A stretch of 64,000 nucleotides of DNA from a virus. The notes under the pieces were generated by a model. That model searched no databases, was not told the origin of the DNA, and saw only the letters and a list, made by a program, of their open reading frames with translations. The position numbers were made by a program, and so were the translations under genes. The stretch lies in IMG/VR virus record IMGVR_UViG_3300025929_000012, positions 1 to 64,000 of that record. The stretch is one strand, 5' to 3'. Shown one piece after another: positions 17,149 through 23,171 of the stretch (positions are counted from its first letter, which is position 1; the number at the start of each line of letters is the position of its first letter).

Positions 17149-17621
17149 TGGCTACCGGACGGCCGCTAAACTACACGACGACGATCGCGGCTAGCCGCAC
17201 TGCCGGGGAATGCCAGTCGATCCTCGCCGCCGCCGGGGCCGCCTCGGTCGCGACCCACTTCGAGGGAGGTCAGCCGTCCGGGCTGTCGTTCACCCTGAAG
17301 ACCCCGCACGGCGTCCGCGCGTTCACGCTCCCGGTGAATGTCGAAGGCGTCCAGCGGGTGCTCCGGAAGGCCGAGAAGGACGGAAAGTTCGCCGGGGCCA
17401 GGAAGGGGCCGGGGCACTTTTCCAGCCGGGAGCACGCCGCCCGCGTTGCATGGCGCGTGGCGAAGGACTGGCTTGAAGCGAACCTCGCGCTGATCGAAGC
17501 GGAAATGGCCTCGCTGGAGACCGTCATGCTGCCCTACTTGCACGTTGACGGGGAGCGGACGCTGTGGCAGGCGTACCAGGACAACGAGCGGGCAGCGATC
17601 GAGGCGGGCGGCGCGTCGTGA
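17148..17621 (+). CDS. Conserved hypothetical phage protein
   Basis: NYTT.I..FTLP..A.RVAWR..KDWLEA..LPY. Confidence 0.7.
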   Translation: MATGRPLNYTTTIAASRTAGECQSILAAAGAASVATHFEGGQPSGLSFTLKTPHGVRAFTLPVNVEGVQRVLRKAEKDGKFAGARKGPGHFSSREHAARVAWRVAKDWLEANLALIEAEMASLETVMLPYLHVDGERTLWQAYQDNERAAIEAGGAS

Positions 17622-18222
17622 TCGCGGTCCTCAACTGGCCCACTGGTTCCTCCTGTTCCTGCTGTCCGCCTTCGGCGTCTTCGAGGGCGTGCGGGACTTC
17701 TTCACGGGCATCGCGCAGGCGGTCTCCCTGGCCGGGGAGCGCAGGCACAAGCGGCGGATGAAGGAGCTCCGGCTCCGGGCCAGGATCGCGGAGGGCGCGG
17801 TCCTTCCCCGCCCAGCCGGCCAGGGTTCCGCGCCGGGGCCGTGCGTGCACCGCAACGTCGTTCCCGTCGTGTCCGCGGCCGAGGAGGTCGTCGCGTGGCT
17901 GTGCCGGTCCTGTGAGACGAGGCTCCCGGCTGACTGGGCAGTACGGGAGGAAGACCTGTGAGCCGGGTAATGCGGGCCGGTCCTTCTCCGCCACGGCGAA
18001 GACCCCCCGCCCGGTGACCGCGAACGCCCATCCCTCGGCGATCAGGACCTGGACGGCCTTAGTGGCGGTTCCCCTGGCGACTCCGTGTTCCTGGGTGAGG
18101 GCACGGTTGGAGGGGAGGGCGCGGCGGGGCGGTATCCGCCCGGCGCGGATGTCTTCACGCAGGAGGCCCGCGAGCTGCTCGTACAGCGGCTCGGGTGCCT
18201 CCGGGTCTATCGGCCCGGTCAC
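17524..18222 (-). CDS. GntR-family winged-helix regulator (HTH in first about 80 aa; 3' run-on uncertain)
   Basis: PLYEQLA..IRAG..LPS..L..EHGVARGT..KA..L..EG..GRGVF; CATGAT-6nt-GTG leaderless start. Confidence 0.8.
   Translation of the reverse strand: MTGPIDPEAPEPLYEQLAGLLREDIRAGRIPPRRALPSNRALTQEHGVARGTATKAVQVLIAEGWAFAVTGRGVFAVAEKDRPALPGSQVFLPYCPVSREPRLTGPAQPRDDLLGRGHDGNDVAVHARPRRGTLAGWAGKDRALRDPGPEPELLHPPLVPALPGQGDRLRDAREEVPHALEDAEGGQQEQEEPVGQLRTAITTRRPPRSLPARCPGTPATASAPRQRASRAA
17618..17961 (+). CDS. Membrane protein with Zn ribbon, apparent 1-nt deletion near 17640
   Basis: VIAVLNWP joins HWFLLFLL..WLCRSC in another frame. Confidence 0.5.
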
Positions 18223-18410
18223 GCGTACATCATGGGTTGCCTCGGGTAGCACGCCCCCCCCGGGGCTGCCCGTAGCATGCCATGGGACACTACGGGATGG
18301 TATGGACCAGCGTAGGGCACCCTGGTATGGTTGGTCACCTGCGCACGGTGCGCCGCGGCCCGGGCACCGTGCGCAGTCACGATCCAGGGCCGGGACCGGG
18401 AGGAACGGAA

Positions 18411-18656
18411 ATGCAGCCTCAGGGTGAAGGCGCCGGCCAGGGTGAAGGCGCCCGCTGGGTCAAGAGCTCGCGGAGTTTCTCCAACGGCGCCTGCGTTGAG
18501 GTGGCCGGCCTGCCCGGCGGCGTGGTCGGCGTCCGGCACAGCAAGGACCCGGGCGGGCCTGTCCTGCGGTTCACGCCGGCCGAGTGGCAGGCGTTCCTCG
18601 GCGGCGCGCGGGCCGGGGAGTTTGACGGCTTCGGCGCCACGCCTTCCGGACGCTGA
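18411..18656 (+). CDS. DUF397 family protein
   Basis: WVKSSRS..GACVEVA..VGVRHSKDP.GPVL.FTPAEW.AFL. Confidence 0.9.
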   Translation: MQPQGEGAGQGEGARWVKSSRSFSNGACVEVAGLPGGVVGVRHSKDPGGPVLRFTPAEWQAFLGGARAGEFDGFGATPSGR

Positions 18657-18871
18657 AGATGGGCAGGTCCCTGACCAACGTCCGCGGGCAGAGCAGCAAC
18701 CACGGCCCGGCGGCCCTGCCGCAGGAAGTCCGGGACACCCAGGTCACCTTCTGGCAGATGATCTGAGGATCCCCCGGCGCTTCTCCCCGCTCCCTTTAGC
18801 GCCGGGGGGTGAGCGGCCCAGGGGTGAACGGGCGCATGCGGCTCGCCCGGCCCCGGACTGCCGCTCACAGG

Positions 18872-18913
18872 GAAGGCCTCGCCCCCCGGTTCACCCGGAG
18901 GGGCGGGGCCTTC
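18872..18913. terminator. GC-rich hairpin
   Basis: GAAGGCCTCGCCC ... GGGCGGGGCCTTC inverted repeat. Confidence 0.5.
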
Positions 18914-18926
18914 GCCGTTGCCCCGG

Positions 18927-19165
18927 TGCTACGCTGGCCGGCGAGGGGGAAGCACGCTCAGAGGGGGGCCGTGACTGCCGTGACCGGTGACGTCGCTGAC
19001 GGGCTGCTGCCCGACGTCCGCGACATGGACATCGCCGACCTGGCCTTCGGCGGCGAGTCGGGCCTGGACCGGGCACTGGAGCGGATCCTCGCCTCTGCCG
19101 GCGAGTGCAACTTCAACAGCTTCGGCTCCAGCATCTGAGACCCGGCTGCTGCTACGCTGGCCGGC
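18927..19165 (+). repeat. 16-bp direct repeat TGCTACGCTGGCCGGC flanking the FxsA-like gene
   Basis: Exact copies at 18927-18942 and 19150-19165, each containing the -10-like TACGCT. Confidence 0.85.
18971..19138 (+). CDS. FxSxx-COOH family RiPP precursor (FxsA-like)
   Basis: 55 aa: LLPDVRDMDIADLA..SGLDRALERIL..NFNSFGSSI-COOH; RBS GAGGGG. Confidence 0.8.
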   Translation: MTAVTGDVADGLLPDVRDMDIADLAFGGESGLDRALERILASAGECNFNSFGSSI

Positions 19166-19356
19166 AGGATCCCACAGGGGGGCACGGTGAAGGATGGGCG
19201 TTCAGCCACCGCTCGCGGCGGATCCCGTGCTGGCCGGTTCCCGGAGACCGTAACCGGGCCTTGTGACCCCCCGCCCACCGCGAAGGGCGGCCCGGCGTAC
19301 CGCGACTGGCCGGGCTGCCCGCCCCCGCTCTCGCCCTTTGCGGCAGGATAAAGAGC

Positions 19357-19695
19357 GTGACCGCCGCCGTTCTCCCGCCCCTCATGCTTGAGGATCTCTT
19401 TCCCCTCATCCACCGCGGGACGCTGCCCTGCCTGGCCGCCCGTGACCTGGCTGACACCGGTGCCGCGATCGAGCGCCGCCGCCTGGATGAGGTCCACGGG
19501 TGCGCGCTGTGCGGCGAGCGGGCATGTTCGGCCTTCGCCTTCGGGCCGTCAGACCTGATCGGCTCCGCCCGGTGGCTTGACCTGTGCCCGCCGCACAGTC
19601 ACGCACTACGGCTGATGGCAGGCCGGCTGTCCTGTGCCTTCGTTACCGACGATGAGATAATCCGCCGCTATGAGGCATGGCTACGTACCCGGTGA
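19357..19695 (+). CDS. Zn-binding hypothetical protein, leaderless
   Basis: CALCG..RWLDLC..H; CAGGAT-7nt-GTG. Confidence 0.6.
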   Translation: MTAAVLPPLMLEDLFPLIHRGTLPCLAARDLADTGAAIERRRLDEVHGCALCGERACSAFAFGPSDLIGSARWLDLCPPHSHALRLMAGRLSCAFVTDDEIIRRYEAWLRTR

Positions 19696-20215: not shown

Positions 20216-20887
20216 TCATGCGGCCTCGCCGGAACTCGCGCGCCTGGCGCGCTCAGCTGCCTGCATGGCCAGTATCATCGCGCGGACCTCAGTGAAGGGG
20301 ACCTGCTCGGGAATCCGGGCATCCCCGGTGCCCTGGTACTTGCGCGCCCGCTGTATGTAGAGGAGCAGCGACTTGCCCGGGCGGAACCACTCCCCCTTCA
20401 CGCAGTGCGCGGCGAAGACCCCGTGAGCGTCGTTCTCTTCCTTCCGTCCTCCGGGCGTGGCCAGCAGGAGCCGCAGCGGGCCGTGCTCGCCGCGGAGCCT
20501 GCGCAGGCGCGGGCGGTAGCTGGCCGTGTAGCCGATCTTGATCAGCCCGTCTGACTCGCGCTGCAGGTAGTAGACGATGCTCCGGGCCTCGCGCTGGCCC
20601 TCCGCGATCACGCGGGCGCGCTCGGCCTGTTCTTTCCGGGCTGCCTCGTGGCGCTCAGGCGCTTCCGCGATGTGGCGCTTGTAGAACCAGTCGAGGGCAC
20701 GGTGGTAGTGGTGGAGGCAGAGGTCGATGTCGCCGAGGGACTCGGTTGCCCGGCGGTCGCACGGGTCGCCGGCGTCATGGGAGAGGTTCGCGGTCGCCCA
20801 CCGGGCTCCGCATGGCGGGGACGCGTCGTCCTCGCGGTCGCCGGGGACGCTCACCGGGTGGCCCGGATGCCCGCACATTGCCCGCAC
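20216..20887 (-). CDS. GIY-YIG/T5orf172-like protein
   Basis: IVYYLQ..LIKIGYT..RL..E..H..F..GEWF. Confidence 0.8.
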   Translation of the reverse strand: MRAMCGHPGHPVSVPGDREDDASPPCGARWATANLSHDAGDPCDRRATESLGDIDLCLHHYHRALDWFYKRHIAEAPERHEAARKEQAERARVIAEGQREARSIVYYLQRESDGLIKIGYTASYRPRLRRLRGEHGPLRLLLATPGGRKEENDAHGVFAAHCVKGEWFRPGKSLLLYIQRARKYQGTGDARIPEQVPFTEVRAMILAMQAAERARRASSGEAA

Positions 20888-20983
20888 GGACGCGCGAGAA
20901 TCACCCCGGTACAGTCAGGGACGGCCGGGGAAGTCAGTCTTTTCGAAAAAGGGCACATGACCTATCTAAACTCTCGATCGCCC

Positions 20984-21075
20984 GGAGGGTCGGGGACGCG
21001 CTAATCCGGTCGGGATCGCACTGCTAATGCGGTTAGGGGGTGACCCCTTCCGGGGTTCAAATCCCCGATCCTCCG
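20984..21075 (+). tRNA. tRNA-Ser(GCT) with atypical D arm; probable attP region
   Basis: Acceptor GGAGGGT/ATCCTCC; anticodon arm TCGCA-CTGCTAA-TGCGG; long variable arm; T arm CGGGG-TTCAAAT-CCCCG; TAAACT upstream; about 110 nt from integrase stop. Confidence 0.75.
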
Positions 21076-21183
21076 CTCCTGACCAGGACGTTTGCTAAAG
21101 GCCACCCGGGCCGGGAAGCCCGCACGGAGGCCCGAAAACCTGAAAGCCCGCACATTGCCCGCACGCCGGTCGGCGGGAGGCGC

Positions 21184-22626
21184 TCACCGGGCATCCCGGC
21201 CGGCCTGCGGGATGACCGCCGCCGCCTCCTCCGCCATCGCCGCCGCGATGTCCGGGAACAGGTGCACGTACACGTCCTCGGTGAACGACGCGCGACGGTG
21301 GCCGAGCATCCCCGAGATGTAACTGGTGTCCTGCCCGGCGGCCTTCCGGTAGCTGGCCGCCCCGTGCCGGAGGTCGTGGAACCGCACGGGGGGAAGGCCG
21401 ATCCGGAACGCCAGCGTCCGGAGCCGCCGGGACGCCCACTGCCCCAGCACGCCCGTGCCGTCCTCATGGGTGAACACCCGCCCGGTGTCGGTCCACGCCG
21501 GCCCCCACGCCAGCCGCTCCGCCGCCTGCACCCTCCGCCACGCCCTCAGCGCCTTCAGCGCCCGCGCCGGGATCGGCACCTCCCGCATTCCCGCCGCCGA
21601 CTTCGGGCCGTCCCCGGCCTCGGTGTCCCGCACGTACAGGACCCCGGCGTCCAGGTCCACCTCCGCCCACGTCAGGCCGACCTCCTCGCCGCGGCGCAGC
21701 CCGACGTAGACCACCAGGCACCACAGGGCGAACAGCCGCTCGCCCTCGACCGCGTCAAGGAACGCCCCGGCCTGGACCGGGGTCCACACCATCACCGGGC
21801 ACGGGCGCAGCGCCGGCGACGCCCACAGGGCTTCCCGCTCCACCGTCGTCAGCCGTTTCCCCTTCGCCTCCTCCGCCTCCGCCTCCCGGCGGGCGAGGGC
21901 CGCGCGGAACGCCGCCACTCGCGGGCCAGTCCAGGCGATTGGCTTCACCTTCACCGCGCGGGGCAGCTCCGCGCCCTGGCACGGGCTGACGATGAACATC
22001 GCTGGTATCGCGGCGTTCATCGCCGCCCGGAACGGGGCGAACATCCTCGCGACCCGGGCGGGGGACAGTGGCCGCGTGTACTTCTTGCGCCGCTCCTCCC
22101 CCTCCGGCAGGACACGGCGGTCATCATCGGCGCGGGCGGCGATCATCCGGCGCAGCATCTCCGACGGCCCGGCGCCGGGGAGGAGCGACTGGCCGATGAG
22201 CATCATCTCCCGCATGACCTCCTCGACGTGCCGGCGGCGGACGTCGGTGACCCGCATGTGGCCGAGGGCCGGAATCCAGTACAGGCGGAACGCCTCGTCG
22301 TCGGTTTCCCGGGTCCGCTTCTTCTGGTTGACCTTGCCCGCCTGGTAGGCCCGCAGGTAGTCGGCGACCTTCAGCGCCCGGTCCGGTGCCCCCGCCCCGC
22401 CGCCGACCCGGGCGAGGACCGCGGCCAGCTCGTCCTCGGCGTCCTTCTTCGTGGGGAACGGCCCGCCGACGGGCTGCCTGCGCTTCTCCCCTGGTGCCTT
22501 GGGTGCCTCGTACCGGTAGTACCAGGACCCGTGGCCCTTCTTCTTCAGGTCCGGGCAGGCGGTGTGCAGCTTCTTCCCGGTTTCCGGGTCGCGGCACCAG
22601 CACTGCCGGTAGACGGTTCCCCTCAT
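21184..22626 (-). CDS. int: Tyrosine integrase
   Basis: GLRRGE, PKS, RFHDLRH, MLGH, DVYVH catalytic motifs. Confidence 0.95.
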   Translation of the reverse strand: MRGTVYRQCWCRDPETGKKLHTACPDLKKKGHGSWYYRYEAPKAPGEKRRQPVGGPFPTKKDAEDELAAVLARVGGGAGAPDRALKVADYLRAYQAGKVNQKKRTRETDDEAFRLYWIPALGHMRVTDVRRRHVEEVMREMMLIGQSLLPGAGPSEMLRRMIAARADDDRRVLPEGEERRKKYTRPLSPARVARMFAPFRAAMNAAIPAMFIVSPCQGAELPRAVKVKPIAWTGPRVAAFRAALARREAEAEEAKGKRLTTVEREALWASPALRPCPVMVWTPVQAGAFLDAVEGERLFALWCLVVYVGLRRGEEVGLTWAEVDLDAGVLYVRDTEAGDGPKSAAGMREVPIPARALKALRAWRRVQAAERLAWGPAWTDTGRVFTHEDGTGVLGQWASRRLRTLAFRIGLPPVRFHDLRHGAASYRKAAGQDTSYISGMLGHRRASFTEDVYVHLFPDIAAAMAEEAAAVIPQAGRDAR

Positions 22627-23171
22627 CGCTTGTCTCCTTCTATGGCGGCGGCGGTCTGGTCGTCTTCCGCGGCGATCTCCCGGAGCCGGGCGGCCCTGTC
22701 GCGGTACCGGGCGGCGGCCATGGCCCGCTCGTCGGGCGCGGTGTCATCGGCGCCTGTCCACCGTGCGACGGCGGCGGCCCACTCGGGGCTGAGCCACCGG
22801 CCGGCGAGGGCGTTGAACCGGTCCCGGTACGCCTGCATGGCGGGGGCGTCGTCGTCGCTGTCGGGCATGACGAGCACGGTCATCAGCTCCGCGCGGTCGA
22901 GTGTCACGGGGCCTGCCTCATACCGGCCGTTGCCGTCGTCGGCGGGCGGGGGAAGGAACAGCGCGATGAGCGGGACGCCGAGCGCCCAGGCGATGGCGCC
23001 GAGCTCGGCGGCGTCGAACTCCCGCCGGGAGTTCTCAGCGTCTGACACGGACTGGCTGGACCAGCCGAGCCGCGCGCCGAGCTCCCGCTGGGTGAGCCCT
23101 GCCGTGCGCCGGTAGAAGGCGGTGTTCGCCCCCACGACCTCGTGGAGGGTTGACGGGGTGTCGTCTGCCAT
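22623..23171 (-). CDS. XRE-family immunity repressor
   Basis: N-term HTH GLTQRELGARLGWS..VSDAEN; leaderless TACTAT-7nt-ATG; overlaps int. Confidence 0.8.
   Translation of the reverse strand: MADDTPSTLHEVVGANTAFYRRTAGLTQRELGARLGWSSQSVSDAENSRREFDAAELGAIAWALGVPLIALFLPPPADDGNGRYEAGPVTLDRAELMTVLVMPDSDDDAPAMQAYRDRFNALAGRWLSPEWAAAVARWTGADDTAPDERAMAAARYRDRAARLREIAAEDDQTAAAIEGDKR

What the first reader, a model, noticed from the sequence alone, without database searches (positions are those of the whole stretch)
18971..19138. Orphan FxSxx-COOH (FxsA-like) RiPP precursor encoded by a phage
Seen: a 55-aa ORF hidden at the end of a longer predicted ORF, with its own RBS, leader LLPDVRDMDIADLA..SGLDRALERIL and tail CNFNSFGSSI (two FxS motifs, the last in FxSxx-COOH register). 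Known: FxsA precursors are normally encoded beside the cyclophane-forming radical SAM/SPASM maturase FxsB and FxsC/FxsT proteins in actinomycete chromosomes. No radical SAM gene is in this window. Inference: the phage hijacks the host maturase to make a modified peptide, or titrates and decoys the host Fxs system, which would suggest an antiphage or signalling role for that system.
Basis: partly seen in the sequence, partly recalled or inferred. Interest (0 to 1): 0.82.

Follow-up and report, generated by a model that had tools for sequence, protein, structure and literature searches.

The report
Phage-borne orphan FxsA peptide precursor
A 110-kb temperate phage of soil actinomycetes carries a stand-alone copy of a small peptide gene that its likely hosts keep beside a ring-forming radical-SAM enzyme. 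The phage probably depends on the host enzyme to process its peptide, an arrangement I did not find in the open-access papers I searched.

Summary
Window 18971-19138 (+) holds a conserved 55-aa gene (52 aa if it starts at GTG 18980). It has a coding-like base composition and its own Shine-Dalgarno site, and GC-rich hairpins separate it from its neighbours. The peptide ends in two adjacent Phe-x-Ser motifs, the second in FxSxx-COOH register.

It scores below the curated TIGR04268 cut-off (14.1 vs 28 bits). However, wherever enough flanking DNA was available, its homologues in genome and metagenome scans lie in canonical fxs clusters: FxsB, an HExxH hydroxylase and the FxSxx TPR protein.

The complete 110,328-bp phage record has no FxsB, FxsC or FxsT. 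The gene sits 1.8 kb from an apparently intact attP (tRNA-Ser-like core plus tyrosine integrase).

attP, a 95%-identical DUF397 gene and 82-85% nucleotide identity of the peptide gene all point to a Streptosporangiaceae host that has several FxsB genes.

The phage copy keeps every conserved leader and core position but has replaced the host upstream region.

Most likely it is a moron-type precursor matured by host FxsB. A decoy role or neutral carriage remain possible. An antiphage role for Fxs is untested.

Unchecked notes from this scan describe orphan FxsA genes in other phages. I independently found a complete 130-kb phage carrying its own FxsA-FxsB-like pair.

The parts
18971..19138 (+). 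FxsA-like precursor gene, 55 aa. The alternative start GTG 18980 gives 52 aa and is where homology to the host genes begins.
19112..19129 (+). Core: two adjacent Phe-x-Ser motifs (F48-N-S50, F51-G-S53). The C-terminus F-G-S-S-I is in FxSxx-COOH register.
   Evidence: MscB/FxsB-family chemistry (Phe C4 to Ser C-beta, residues i and i+2) as described in PMC11002830.
18998..19093 (+). Leader with the blocks that are invariant in the phage-type variants (DGLLPDVR, LDRALERILA). It aligns to the leader of a canonical FxsA.
18960..18968 (+). Shine-Dalgarno-like purine/G run upstream of the start codon.
   Evidence: sequence
18927..18942 (+). Copy 1 of an exact 16-nt direct repeat. It contains an extended -10-like TGC-TACGCT and is a putative phage-specific promoter. 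It is unrelated to the host precursor upstream regions.
19150..19165 (+). Copy 2 of the same 16-nt repeat, again followed by a G-run and a GTG. This duplicated promoter/RBS module flanks the gene. The ORF behind it (19187-19351) does not look coding.
18769..18811 (+). GC-rich hairpin, terminator-like, after the DUF397 gene.
18870..18916 (+). Very stable hairpin (about 20 bp) just upstream of the promoter-like repeat.
19285..19321 (+). 12-bp GC hairpin about 150 nt after the stop codon. Weak statistics (z -1.4).
18411..18656 (+). Upstream neighbour: DUF397 gene, 95% nucleotide identity to a gene of the candidate host MAG.
17950..18252 (-). GntR-type HTH, at the N-terminal part of the minus-strand ORF 17524-18252.
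20984..21076 (+). tRNA-Ser(GCT)-like element, taken as the attP core. Its 3' 60 nt are nearly identical to host tRNA-Ser and its 5' half is degenerate. GCCCGCAC repeats lie on both sides.
21184..22626 (-). Tyrosine integrase.
22623..23171 (-). XRE-type HTH, a candidate prophage repressor.

Best explanation
The gene is a host-derived FxsA-type (triceptide) precursor. A ~110-kb temperate actinophage carries it as a self-contained moron in the accessory region next to attP.

Shown:
- The phage has no maturase of its own.
- The peptide keeps the conserved leader blocks and both Phe-x-Ser core motifs of precursors found in fxsB / HExxH / FxSxx-TPR clusters of Streptosporangiaceae.
- Its last 11 residues are identical to one of three tandem precursors in the closest host cluster.
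- The host-type upstream region has been replaced by a phage-specific upstream sequence and ribosome-binding site.

Inferred:
- In a lysogen or an infected cell the peptide is translated from its own promoter.
- Its leader is recognised by the host FxsB-family radical SAM/SPASM enzyme.
- FxsB cross-links Phe to the C-beta of the residue two positions on, at F48/S50 and F51/S53. The host HExxH hydroxylase may modify it further.
- The phage thereby controls the supply of a host-type cyclophane peptide independently of host regulation.

What that peptide does is not known, for the host or for the phage.
For: Real gene and family:
- 25 homologues, with an invariant ALERIL block and a conserved NFNSF-x-SSI tail.
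- Coding-like GC3.
- Leader aligns to a TIGR04268-passing precursor, E 2.4e-5.

Context of homologues:
- All 8 genome loci have an FxsB-family match about 4.3 kb upstream on the same strand. It scores above the curated cut-off in 6 and is fragmented in L002 and L004.
- In L001 the cluster is FxsB (482 bits), HExxH hydroxylase, FxSxx_TPR (925 bits) and three precursors.
- 32 of 41 metagenome loci show the TPR gene. Apart from the phage-type contig L029, all but one of the rest (L066) are cut too close to the peptide to tell.

Phage setting:
- DnaB, integrase, endolysin and tape measure are present.
- attP looks intact, with the same repeats on both sides of the core.
- CheckV completeness is 100%.
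- A second assembly of 110,489 bp carries the same peptide and the same DnaB.

Orphan status: no FxsB, FxsC or FxsT in the record.

Host link:
- The attP core and tRNA variable arm match the G001 MAG best.
- The DUF397 gene is 95% identical to one in G001.
- The peptide gene is 82-85% identical in nucleotides to G001's precursors.
- Phage-type contig L029 and host cluster L031 come from the same metagenome.
- G001 has four FxsB genes above the cut-off.

Maintenance in the phage lineage:
- 12 phage-type protein variants, 73-100% identical, change only in the linker positions.
- dN/dS against the close host-type copies (G001-like lineage) is 0.10-0.56.

Own expression signals: the upstream region is unrelated to the host's.

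Complex prediction of host FxsB with the phage peptide gave weak support. The ipSAE score was 0.50 and the best control 0.00. That mark was reached by 58 of 80 solved complexes and 2 of 110 mismatched pairs. Scores of 0.60 or below were seen in only 7 of those solved complexes and in both mismatches that passed. The runs agreed on at least 52% of contacts, and the partner pLDDT was at least 52.
Against: - There is no expression or mass-spectrometry data.
- The curated TIGR04268 cut-off is not reached.
- Between the two closest phage variants, 3 of 4 changed codons are non-synonymous. Selection within the phage lineage is therefore shown only by where the changes fall.
- Phage context is verified for only four variants: G000, the 110,489-bp contig, L029 and P0012.
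- The actual host genome is not in hand, so the presence of a compatible FxsB rests on a related MAG.
- The complex score is in the weak band.
Confidence: 0.5

Rival explanations
1. Decoy or competitor. The phage peptide binds host FxsB (or the NB-ARC/TPR protein) through its conserved leader and blocks or diverts the host Fxs pathway rather than yielding a useful product. This would be a counter-measure if Fxs acts against phages.
For: - Orphan status.
- The leader blocks are invariant in the phage lineage.
- Its own promoter uncouples it from host control.
- The gene lies beside other host-derived single components, such as DUF397.
- Fxs clusters encode a STAND-like NB-ARC/TPR ATPase.
- Intracellular anti-phage RiPPs exist in actinomycetes, namely lanthipeptides (review PMC12360287).
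Against: - The core is as conserved as the leader and is identical to a host core. A pure decoy would not need that.
- The Fxs proteins have no PADLOC match beyond a generic radical-SAM resemblance to viperins.
- Nothing links Fxs to defence experimentally.
Confidence: 0.17
2. Neutral passenger. The gene was picked up from a host fxs cluster by illegitimate recombination into the attP-proximal accessory region and has no function for the phage.
For: - Found in one phage lineage only. The pattern scan of IMG/VR and the tblastn of GenBank phages found no relative of this subfamily.
- The neighbouring region is mosaic between variants.
- The closest pair of variants shows 3 non-synonymous and 1 synonymous codon change.
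Against: - The ORF is intact in 12 sequence variants on about 27 contigs, with changes confined to the linker positions.
- It is 15-18% diverged in nucleotides from the nearest host copies while staying in frame.
- It has acquired phage-specific upstream signals and an SD site.
Confidence: 0.23
3. The real gene is the longer 109-aa ORF (18809-19138) or the antisense ORF (18958-19497), and the peptide-like tail is incidental.
For: Both ORFs exist mechanically.
Against: - Two strong hairpins and a non-coding GC2 lie in the 5' extension.
- The antisense frame has a poorer codon-position GC pattern.
- Homologues share only the 52-55 aa part, and host upstream regions are unrelated.
Confidence: 0.03

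Closest known systems
FxsA/FxsB (MscA/MscB) triceptide system of Actinomycetota (NCBIfam TIGR04268, TIGR04269, TIGR04267, NF040586)
   Same: - Small precursor with a leader of the pattern L-x-D-(L/V)...AL-x-R-x-L.
- C-terminal Phe-x-Ser motifs and an FxSxx-COOH end.
- Close homologues lie in clusters with FxsB, an HExxH hydroxylase and the TPR protein.
- MscB makes a Phe C4 to Ser C-beta cyclophane between residues i and i+2 (PMC11002830).
   Different: - Encoded by a phage with none of the enzymes.
- Below the TIGR04268 cut-off.
- Belongs to a CNFNSF-x-SSI subfamily with two adjacent FxS motifs.
- The host-type upstream region is replaced.
Phage morons / lysogenic-conversion genes next to attP
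   Same: - A single host-derived gene with its own upstream sequence and flanking hairpins.
- Lies in the accessory region 1.8 kb from attP and the integrase.
- Neighbouring gene content varies between variants.
   Different: The product is not a finished protein. It is a substrate that needs a host enzyme.
Phage-encoded FxsA-FxsB-like cassette in IMGVR_UViG_3300036820_000003 (129,940 bp, direct terminal repeats)
   Same: A phage carrying an FxSxx-COOH peptide gene. The 57-aa ORF ends in FNSDI and has three Phe-x-(Ser/Asn) motifs.
   Different: - That phage brings its own FxsB-like enzyme (TIGR04269 318 bits, below the 370 cut-off).
- Its leader is unrelated.
- It has no G000-type DnaB.
Arbitrium AimP and other phage peptides finished by host machinery
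   Same: A short phage-encoded peptide that depends on host processing (PMC12360287).
   Different: AimP needs only host proteases and transport, and it has a phage receptor. No phage receptor is evident here, and the host step needed is radical-SAM cross-linking.

Membership tests
FxSxx-COOH precursor, NCBIfam TIGR04268 (curated equivalog) | Whole-protein score at or above the 28-bit cut-off | tested here: not met
   14.1 bits, E 0.042, profile positions 1-31 of 44 only. Phage-type variant P0012 scores 25.1 bits and P0009 scores 20.8 bits. The in-cluster precursors of L001 score nothing, and only 1 precursor in 5 host genomes passes, so the model is insensitive for this subfamily.
FxsA-type precursors (broad sense) | C-terminus in F-x-S-x-x-COOH register with a Phe-x-Ser cross-link motif | tested here: met
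   The peptide ends F-G-S-S-I and is preceded by F-N-S.
FxsA-type precursors (broad sense) | Leader homologous to that of accepted FxsA peptides | tested here: met
   hhalign of A1 against a TIGR04268-passing precursor of G001 (32.2 bits): probability 76%, E 2.4e-5, 35 columns.
FxsA-type precursors (broad sense) | Encoded beside an FxsB-family radical SAM/SPASM maturase | tested here: not met
   None in the 110,328-bp record. It is met for all 8 genome homologues, and for every metagenome homologue whose contig reaches far enough upstream.
FxsA-type precursors (broad sense) | Cyclophane formation by FxsB on the FxS motifs | not testable with these tools
   Only a weak complex prediction is available (ipSAE 0.50, best control 0.00).
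Temperate phage accessory gene (moron) | Lies inside a phage genome near attP/integrase, with its own expression signals and a host-derived sequence | tested here: met
   Promoter activity itself is inferred.
Known anti-phage defence or anti-defence systems (PADLOC) | Match of the peptide or of host Fxs proteins to a defence model | tested here: not met
   No match for the peptide, the FxSxx_TPR protein or the HExxH protein. FxsB matches only the generic radical-SAM part of the viperin models.

The most novel reading that the evidence does not exclude
The Fxs locus (cyclophane peptide plus an NB-ARC/TPR STAND-like ATPase) is a peptide-gated sensing or immune module of filamentous actinomycetes. 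Phages have repeatedly captured its precursor, and in one case also the maturase, to mimic, saturate or pre-empt that signal. That would make orphan fxsA a new type of substrate-mimic counter-defence gene.
Probability: 0.12. Interest if true: 0.9.

Novelty: new variant of a known kind. Interest (0 to 1): 0.66.

Why it matters
RiPP precursors are normally found beside their enzymes. A virus that carries only the substrate and relies on the host's radical-SAM maturase would be an unusual kind of auxiliary gene.

It would also offer a way to study the Fxs/triceptide systems, which are widespread in actinomycetes. As far as I know their biological role is undescribed, and the open-access papers I searched describe only the enzymology.

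If the phage copy is matured, it shows that a phage can control the supply of a host peptide. If it blocks maturation, it suggests that Fxs takes part in phage-host conflict. Either outcome can be tested with a two-gene co-expression and a lysogen knockout.

Tried and rejected

Searches that found nothing:
- The IMG/VR scan with the peptide alignment found no other viral contig.
- tblastn of the peptide against 50,697 GenBank phage records gave only chance hits.
- Megablast of the locus against phages found nothing.
- An FxsB-like protein searched against GenBank phages gave only distant radical SAM proteins.
- An integrase-based search for related phages gave two distant loci with too little flank.
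- PF05065 capsid search found nothing in G000, G207 or G208. This is uninformative.

Ideas rejected:
- I suspected that homologues whose longest contigs are 101-113 kb (P0008, P0009, P0023) sit on sister phages. The list of DnaB relatives shows no contig of those lengths, so this is unsupported.
- I considered that the tRNA next to the integrase marks a prophage/host junction, which would put the peptide in host DNA. I rejected this because the tRNA's 5' half is degenerate, the same repeats flank it on both sides, no second tRNA fragment exists in the 110 kb, and phage genes lie on both sides.

Other points:
- The sigma-70 consensus scan found no promoter. The promoter assignment rests on the repeated TGC-TACGCT element only.
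- The PADLOC query for DUF397 was one base out of frame and should be ignored.

Full report
**1. What is in the sequence**

Window 18971-19138 (+) encodes 55 aa and forms the 3' end of a longer mechanical ORF that starts at 18809.

The short form is the gene.
- Its GC by codon position is 0.68/0.48/0.89, the pattern of coding DNA in a 70.7% GC genome. The 5' extension has GC2 0.70.
- The extension holds two stable hairpins: 18769-18811 (-27.8 kcal/mol, z -2.1) and 18870-18916 (-42.7 kcal/mol, z -5.1; none of 200 shuffles folds as well).
- A G-rich Shine-Dalgarno site lies at 18960-18968.

Nucleotide homology to the host genes starts at GTG 18980, and host genes start at the equivalent GTG after GGAGGA. 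The product may therefore be 52 rather than 55 aa.

The peptide ends in CNFNSFGSSI. This contains two adjacent Phe-x-Ser motifs, the second in FxSxx-COOH register.

**2. Is it a real, conserved gene?**

A search of 5.8 billion proteins found 25 homologues, with E-values from 2.6e-24 to 3e-6. In the alignment the ALERIL block, NFN, S53 and I55 are invariant. D10, G11, L12, V16, C46, S50, F51 and S54 are at least 90% conserved.

The 90%-identity cluster around the window's own protein holds 10 distinct sequences on about 24 contigs. One of these is a 110,489-bp Logan/ENA contig. A 100%-identical DnaB is also recorded on a contig of that length, so the ~110-kb genome has been assembled twice independently.

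**3. Family**

The curated model TIGR04268 gives 14.1 bits (E 0.042) against a cut-off of 28, and aligns only the leader. By that criterion it is not a member.

The model is insensitive for this subfamily, however. The precursors inside a bona fide cluster (L001) score nothing. Only one precursor passes in five host genomes that together hold many FxsB genes.

Two other lines place the peptide among FxsA-type precursors.
- Its family profile aligns to the leader of the one passing precursor (hhalign E 2.4e-5, 35 columns).
- All 8 homologous loci from species-representative genomes have an FxsB-family match about 4.3 kb upstream on the same strand. It scores above the curated cut-off in 6 and is fragmented in L002 and L004. 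Seven records are titled Streptosporangiaceae, Nocardiopsaceae or uncultured Actinomycetota MAGs. The eighth (L004) is titled a Chitinophagaceae MAG.

In L001 the cluster runs in this order:
- FxsB (482 bits; cut-off 370);
- an aKG-HExxH hydroxylase (TIGR04267, 160 bits);
- the FxSxx-COOH-system TPR protein on the opposite strand (NF040586, 925 bits);
- three tandem precursors.

Of 41 metagenome loci, 32 show the TPR gene upstream. The phage-type contig L029 does not. Seven others are cut within about 375 nt of the peptide, and one (L066) has a different neighbour.

MscB, the characterised FxsB-family enzyme, links Phe C4 to Ser C-beta between residues i and i+2 (PMC11002830). That is the motif present twice in this peptide.

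**4. Is it in a phage, and is it orphan?**

The window is the first 64 kb of a 110,328-bp IMG/VR record that CheckV rates 100% complete. It encodes:
- a DnaB-like helicase, a MazG-like protein, a tyrosine integrase, a GH25 endolysin, a 1375-aa tape measure and HNH nucleases;
- beyond the window, a zeta toxin, a methylase, FtsK/SpoIIIE and a Gp3-like directionality factor.

A tRNA-Ser(GCT)-like element (20984-21076) lies between the accessory genes and the integrase. Its 3' 60 nt are almost identical to real tRNA-Ser genes, but its 5' half is degenerate. GCCCGCAC repeats, including an exact 20-mer, flank it on both sides, and no second tRNA fragment exists in the record. This looks like an intact attP of a free phage genome, not a prophage/host junction.

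The peptide gene lies 1.8 kb from this element, so it would sit at the attR end of the prophage.

The FxsB model finds nothing in the whole record. tblastn with the FxsB, HExxH and TPR proteins also finds nothing.

**5. Host and origin**

Four observations point to a host close to MAG G001 (a Streptosporangiaceae bacterium, JAICUO01).
- The variable arm of the attP tRNA is identical only to that of G001.
- The phage's DUF397 gene is 95% identical in nucleotides to a G001 gene.
- The peptide gene is 82-85% identical in nucleotides to G001's three precursors. Peptide identity to loci from other lineages is at most 71%.
- A 93%-identical phage-type contig (L029) and the G001-type cluster (L031) come from the same metagenome.

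G001 has four FxsB genes above the cut-off. The likely donor and host lineage therefore owns the maturase.

**6. What changed in the phage**

Host precursor copies share a conserved upstream region. The phage copy does not share it.

Instead, an exact 16-nt repeat (TGCTACGCTGGCCGGC, containing an extended -10-like element) stands 28 nt before the gene and again 11 nt after it. Each copy is followed by a G-run and a GTG. In L029 the second copy reads TAAGCT, which still fits TAnnnT. I read this as a duplicated phage promoter/RBS module, but promoter activity is inferred.

Across 12 phage-type variants (73-100% identical), DGLLPDVR, LDRALERILA and NFNSF-x-SSI never change. These variants include P0012, whose N-terminal extension is a translation of the phage-type upstream region.

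dN/dS against the close host-type copies (G001-like lineage) is 0.10-0.56. The closest phage pair differs at only 4 codons, 3 of them non-synonymous and all in variable positions.

**7. Mechanism**

The peptide looks like a competent substrate, not a truncated bait. Leader and core are both intact, and the last 11 residues equal those of host copy 3.

A complex prediction of G001 FxsB with the phage peptide gave weak support.
- The ipSAE score was 0.50 and the best of three controls 0.00.
- That mark was reached by 58 of 80 solved complexes and 2 of 110 mismatched pairs.
- Scores of 0.60 or below occurred in only 7 of those solved complexes and in both mismatches that passed.
- The runs agreed on at least 52% of contacts, and the partner pLDDT was at least 52.

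My best reading (0.5) is that the phage peptide is matured by host FxsB, and perhaps by the hydroxylase, under phage rather than host regulation. The rivals are a leader-mediated decoy (0.17), a neutral passenger (0.23) and a mis-called ORF (0.03).

**8. Is Fxs a defence system?**

This is untested. The TPR protein is NB-ARC (weak) + DUF7779 + TPR with no effector domain.

PADLOC has no model matching it, the hydroxylase or the peptide. FxsB matches only the generic radical-SAM part of the viperin models.

Two short contigs (L030, L066) encode a protein starting with a motif I recognise as typical of STAND-type NTPases just after the precursor. This was read by eye and not followed up.

Anti-phage intracellular lanthipeptides in actinomycetes show that such a role is conceivable for a RiPP (PMC12360287).

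**9. Other phages**

This subfamily was not found in other IMG/VR contigs or in GenBank phages.

Scanning IMG/VR with the FxsB alignment gave two relevant contigs.
- A complete 129,940-bp genome with direct terminal repeats. A 57-aa ORF with three Phe-x-(Ser/Asn) motifs, ending in FNSDI, directly precedes an FxsB-like enzyme (318 bits).
- A provirus record with a similar pair at its edge.

After that, the scan's own notes showed the same cassette, and also orphan FxsA genes in several other phages. None of those resembles this peptide by sequence. I did not check those orphan cases.

**10. Verdict**

This is a new variant of a known kind: a known RiPP precursor family in an undescribed setting. 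I found no open-access paper reporting a phage-borne FxsA.

Noticed in passing
L095:7832-9104 (IMGVR_UViG_3300036820_000003, 129,940 bp, direct terminal repeats, CheckV 100%): A complete phage genome carries a 57-aa ORF with three Phe-x-(Ser/Asn) motifs, ending in FNSDI. It lies directly in front of an FxsB-like radical SAM/SPASM gene (TIGR04269 318 bits, cut-off 370). The leader is unrelated to the window's peptide.
   Followed up: partly
L094:946-2509 (IMGVR_UViG_3300027795_000039, provirus, GC 51%): An FxsB-like gene (337 bits) preceded by a 146-aa ORF that contains two repeated precursor-like modules rich in aromatic-x-x motifs. It lies 1.4 kb from the record edge, so it may be host flank.
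   Followed up: partly
window 18411-18656: The DUF397 gene is 95% identical in nucleotides over 203 bp to a gene of the candidate host MAG (G001:C423), while its flanks are unrelated. This looks like a second recent host-derived gene in the same accessory region.
   Followed up: partly
window 20869-21165: The attP-like region is a tRNA-Ser(GCT)-like element with a degenerate 5' half. It is flanked by an exact 20-nt direct repeat (20869-20888 and 21146-21165) and further GCCCGCAC copies, which are candidate integrase arm sites.
   Followed up: partly
window 18927-18942 and 19150-19165: An exact 16-nt direct repeat brackets the peptide gene. The similarity extends to a G-run and a GTG after each copy. 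The ORF behind the second copy (19187-19351) has a non-coding GC pattern. The origin of the repeat is unexplained: a duplicated promoter, or a scar from cassette insertion.
   Followed up: partly
L001:10001-11709: The closest host cluster has three tandem precursor genes with slightly different cores (…NFNSFNSSI, …NFNTYSSSI, …NFNSFGSSI). They share a conserved upstream element that may be a regulatory site.
   Followed up: partly
L030:~590-1300 and L066:~1632-1967: In two short metagenome contigs the precursor is followed by a gene whose product starts with a P-Y-x-G-x-R-A-F...F-F-G-R motif, which I recognise as typical of STAND-type NTPases.
   Followed up: no
window 17524-18252 (-) versus 17545-17961 (+): The GntR-type HTH matches only the first ~85 residues of the minus-strand ORF. 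The rest overlaps a plus-strand ORF with better GC3, so the regulator may be short or the annotation ambiguous.
   Followed up: no
G000 64001-110328 (L070-L072): The rest of the record encodes DUF3560, a zeta-toxin-domain protein, a DNA methylase, a 769-aa FtsK/SpoIIIE with a gamma domain, and a Gp3-like directionality factor. This is an unusually large and plasmid-like accessory load for a temperate phage.
   Followed up: partly
L004 (CAWFFT010000056.1): A contig bearing an fxs cluster, with TGA-interrupted FxsB, is binned in a Chitinophagaceae MAG. Mis-binning seems likely.
   Followed up: no
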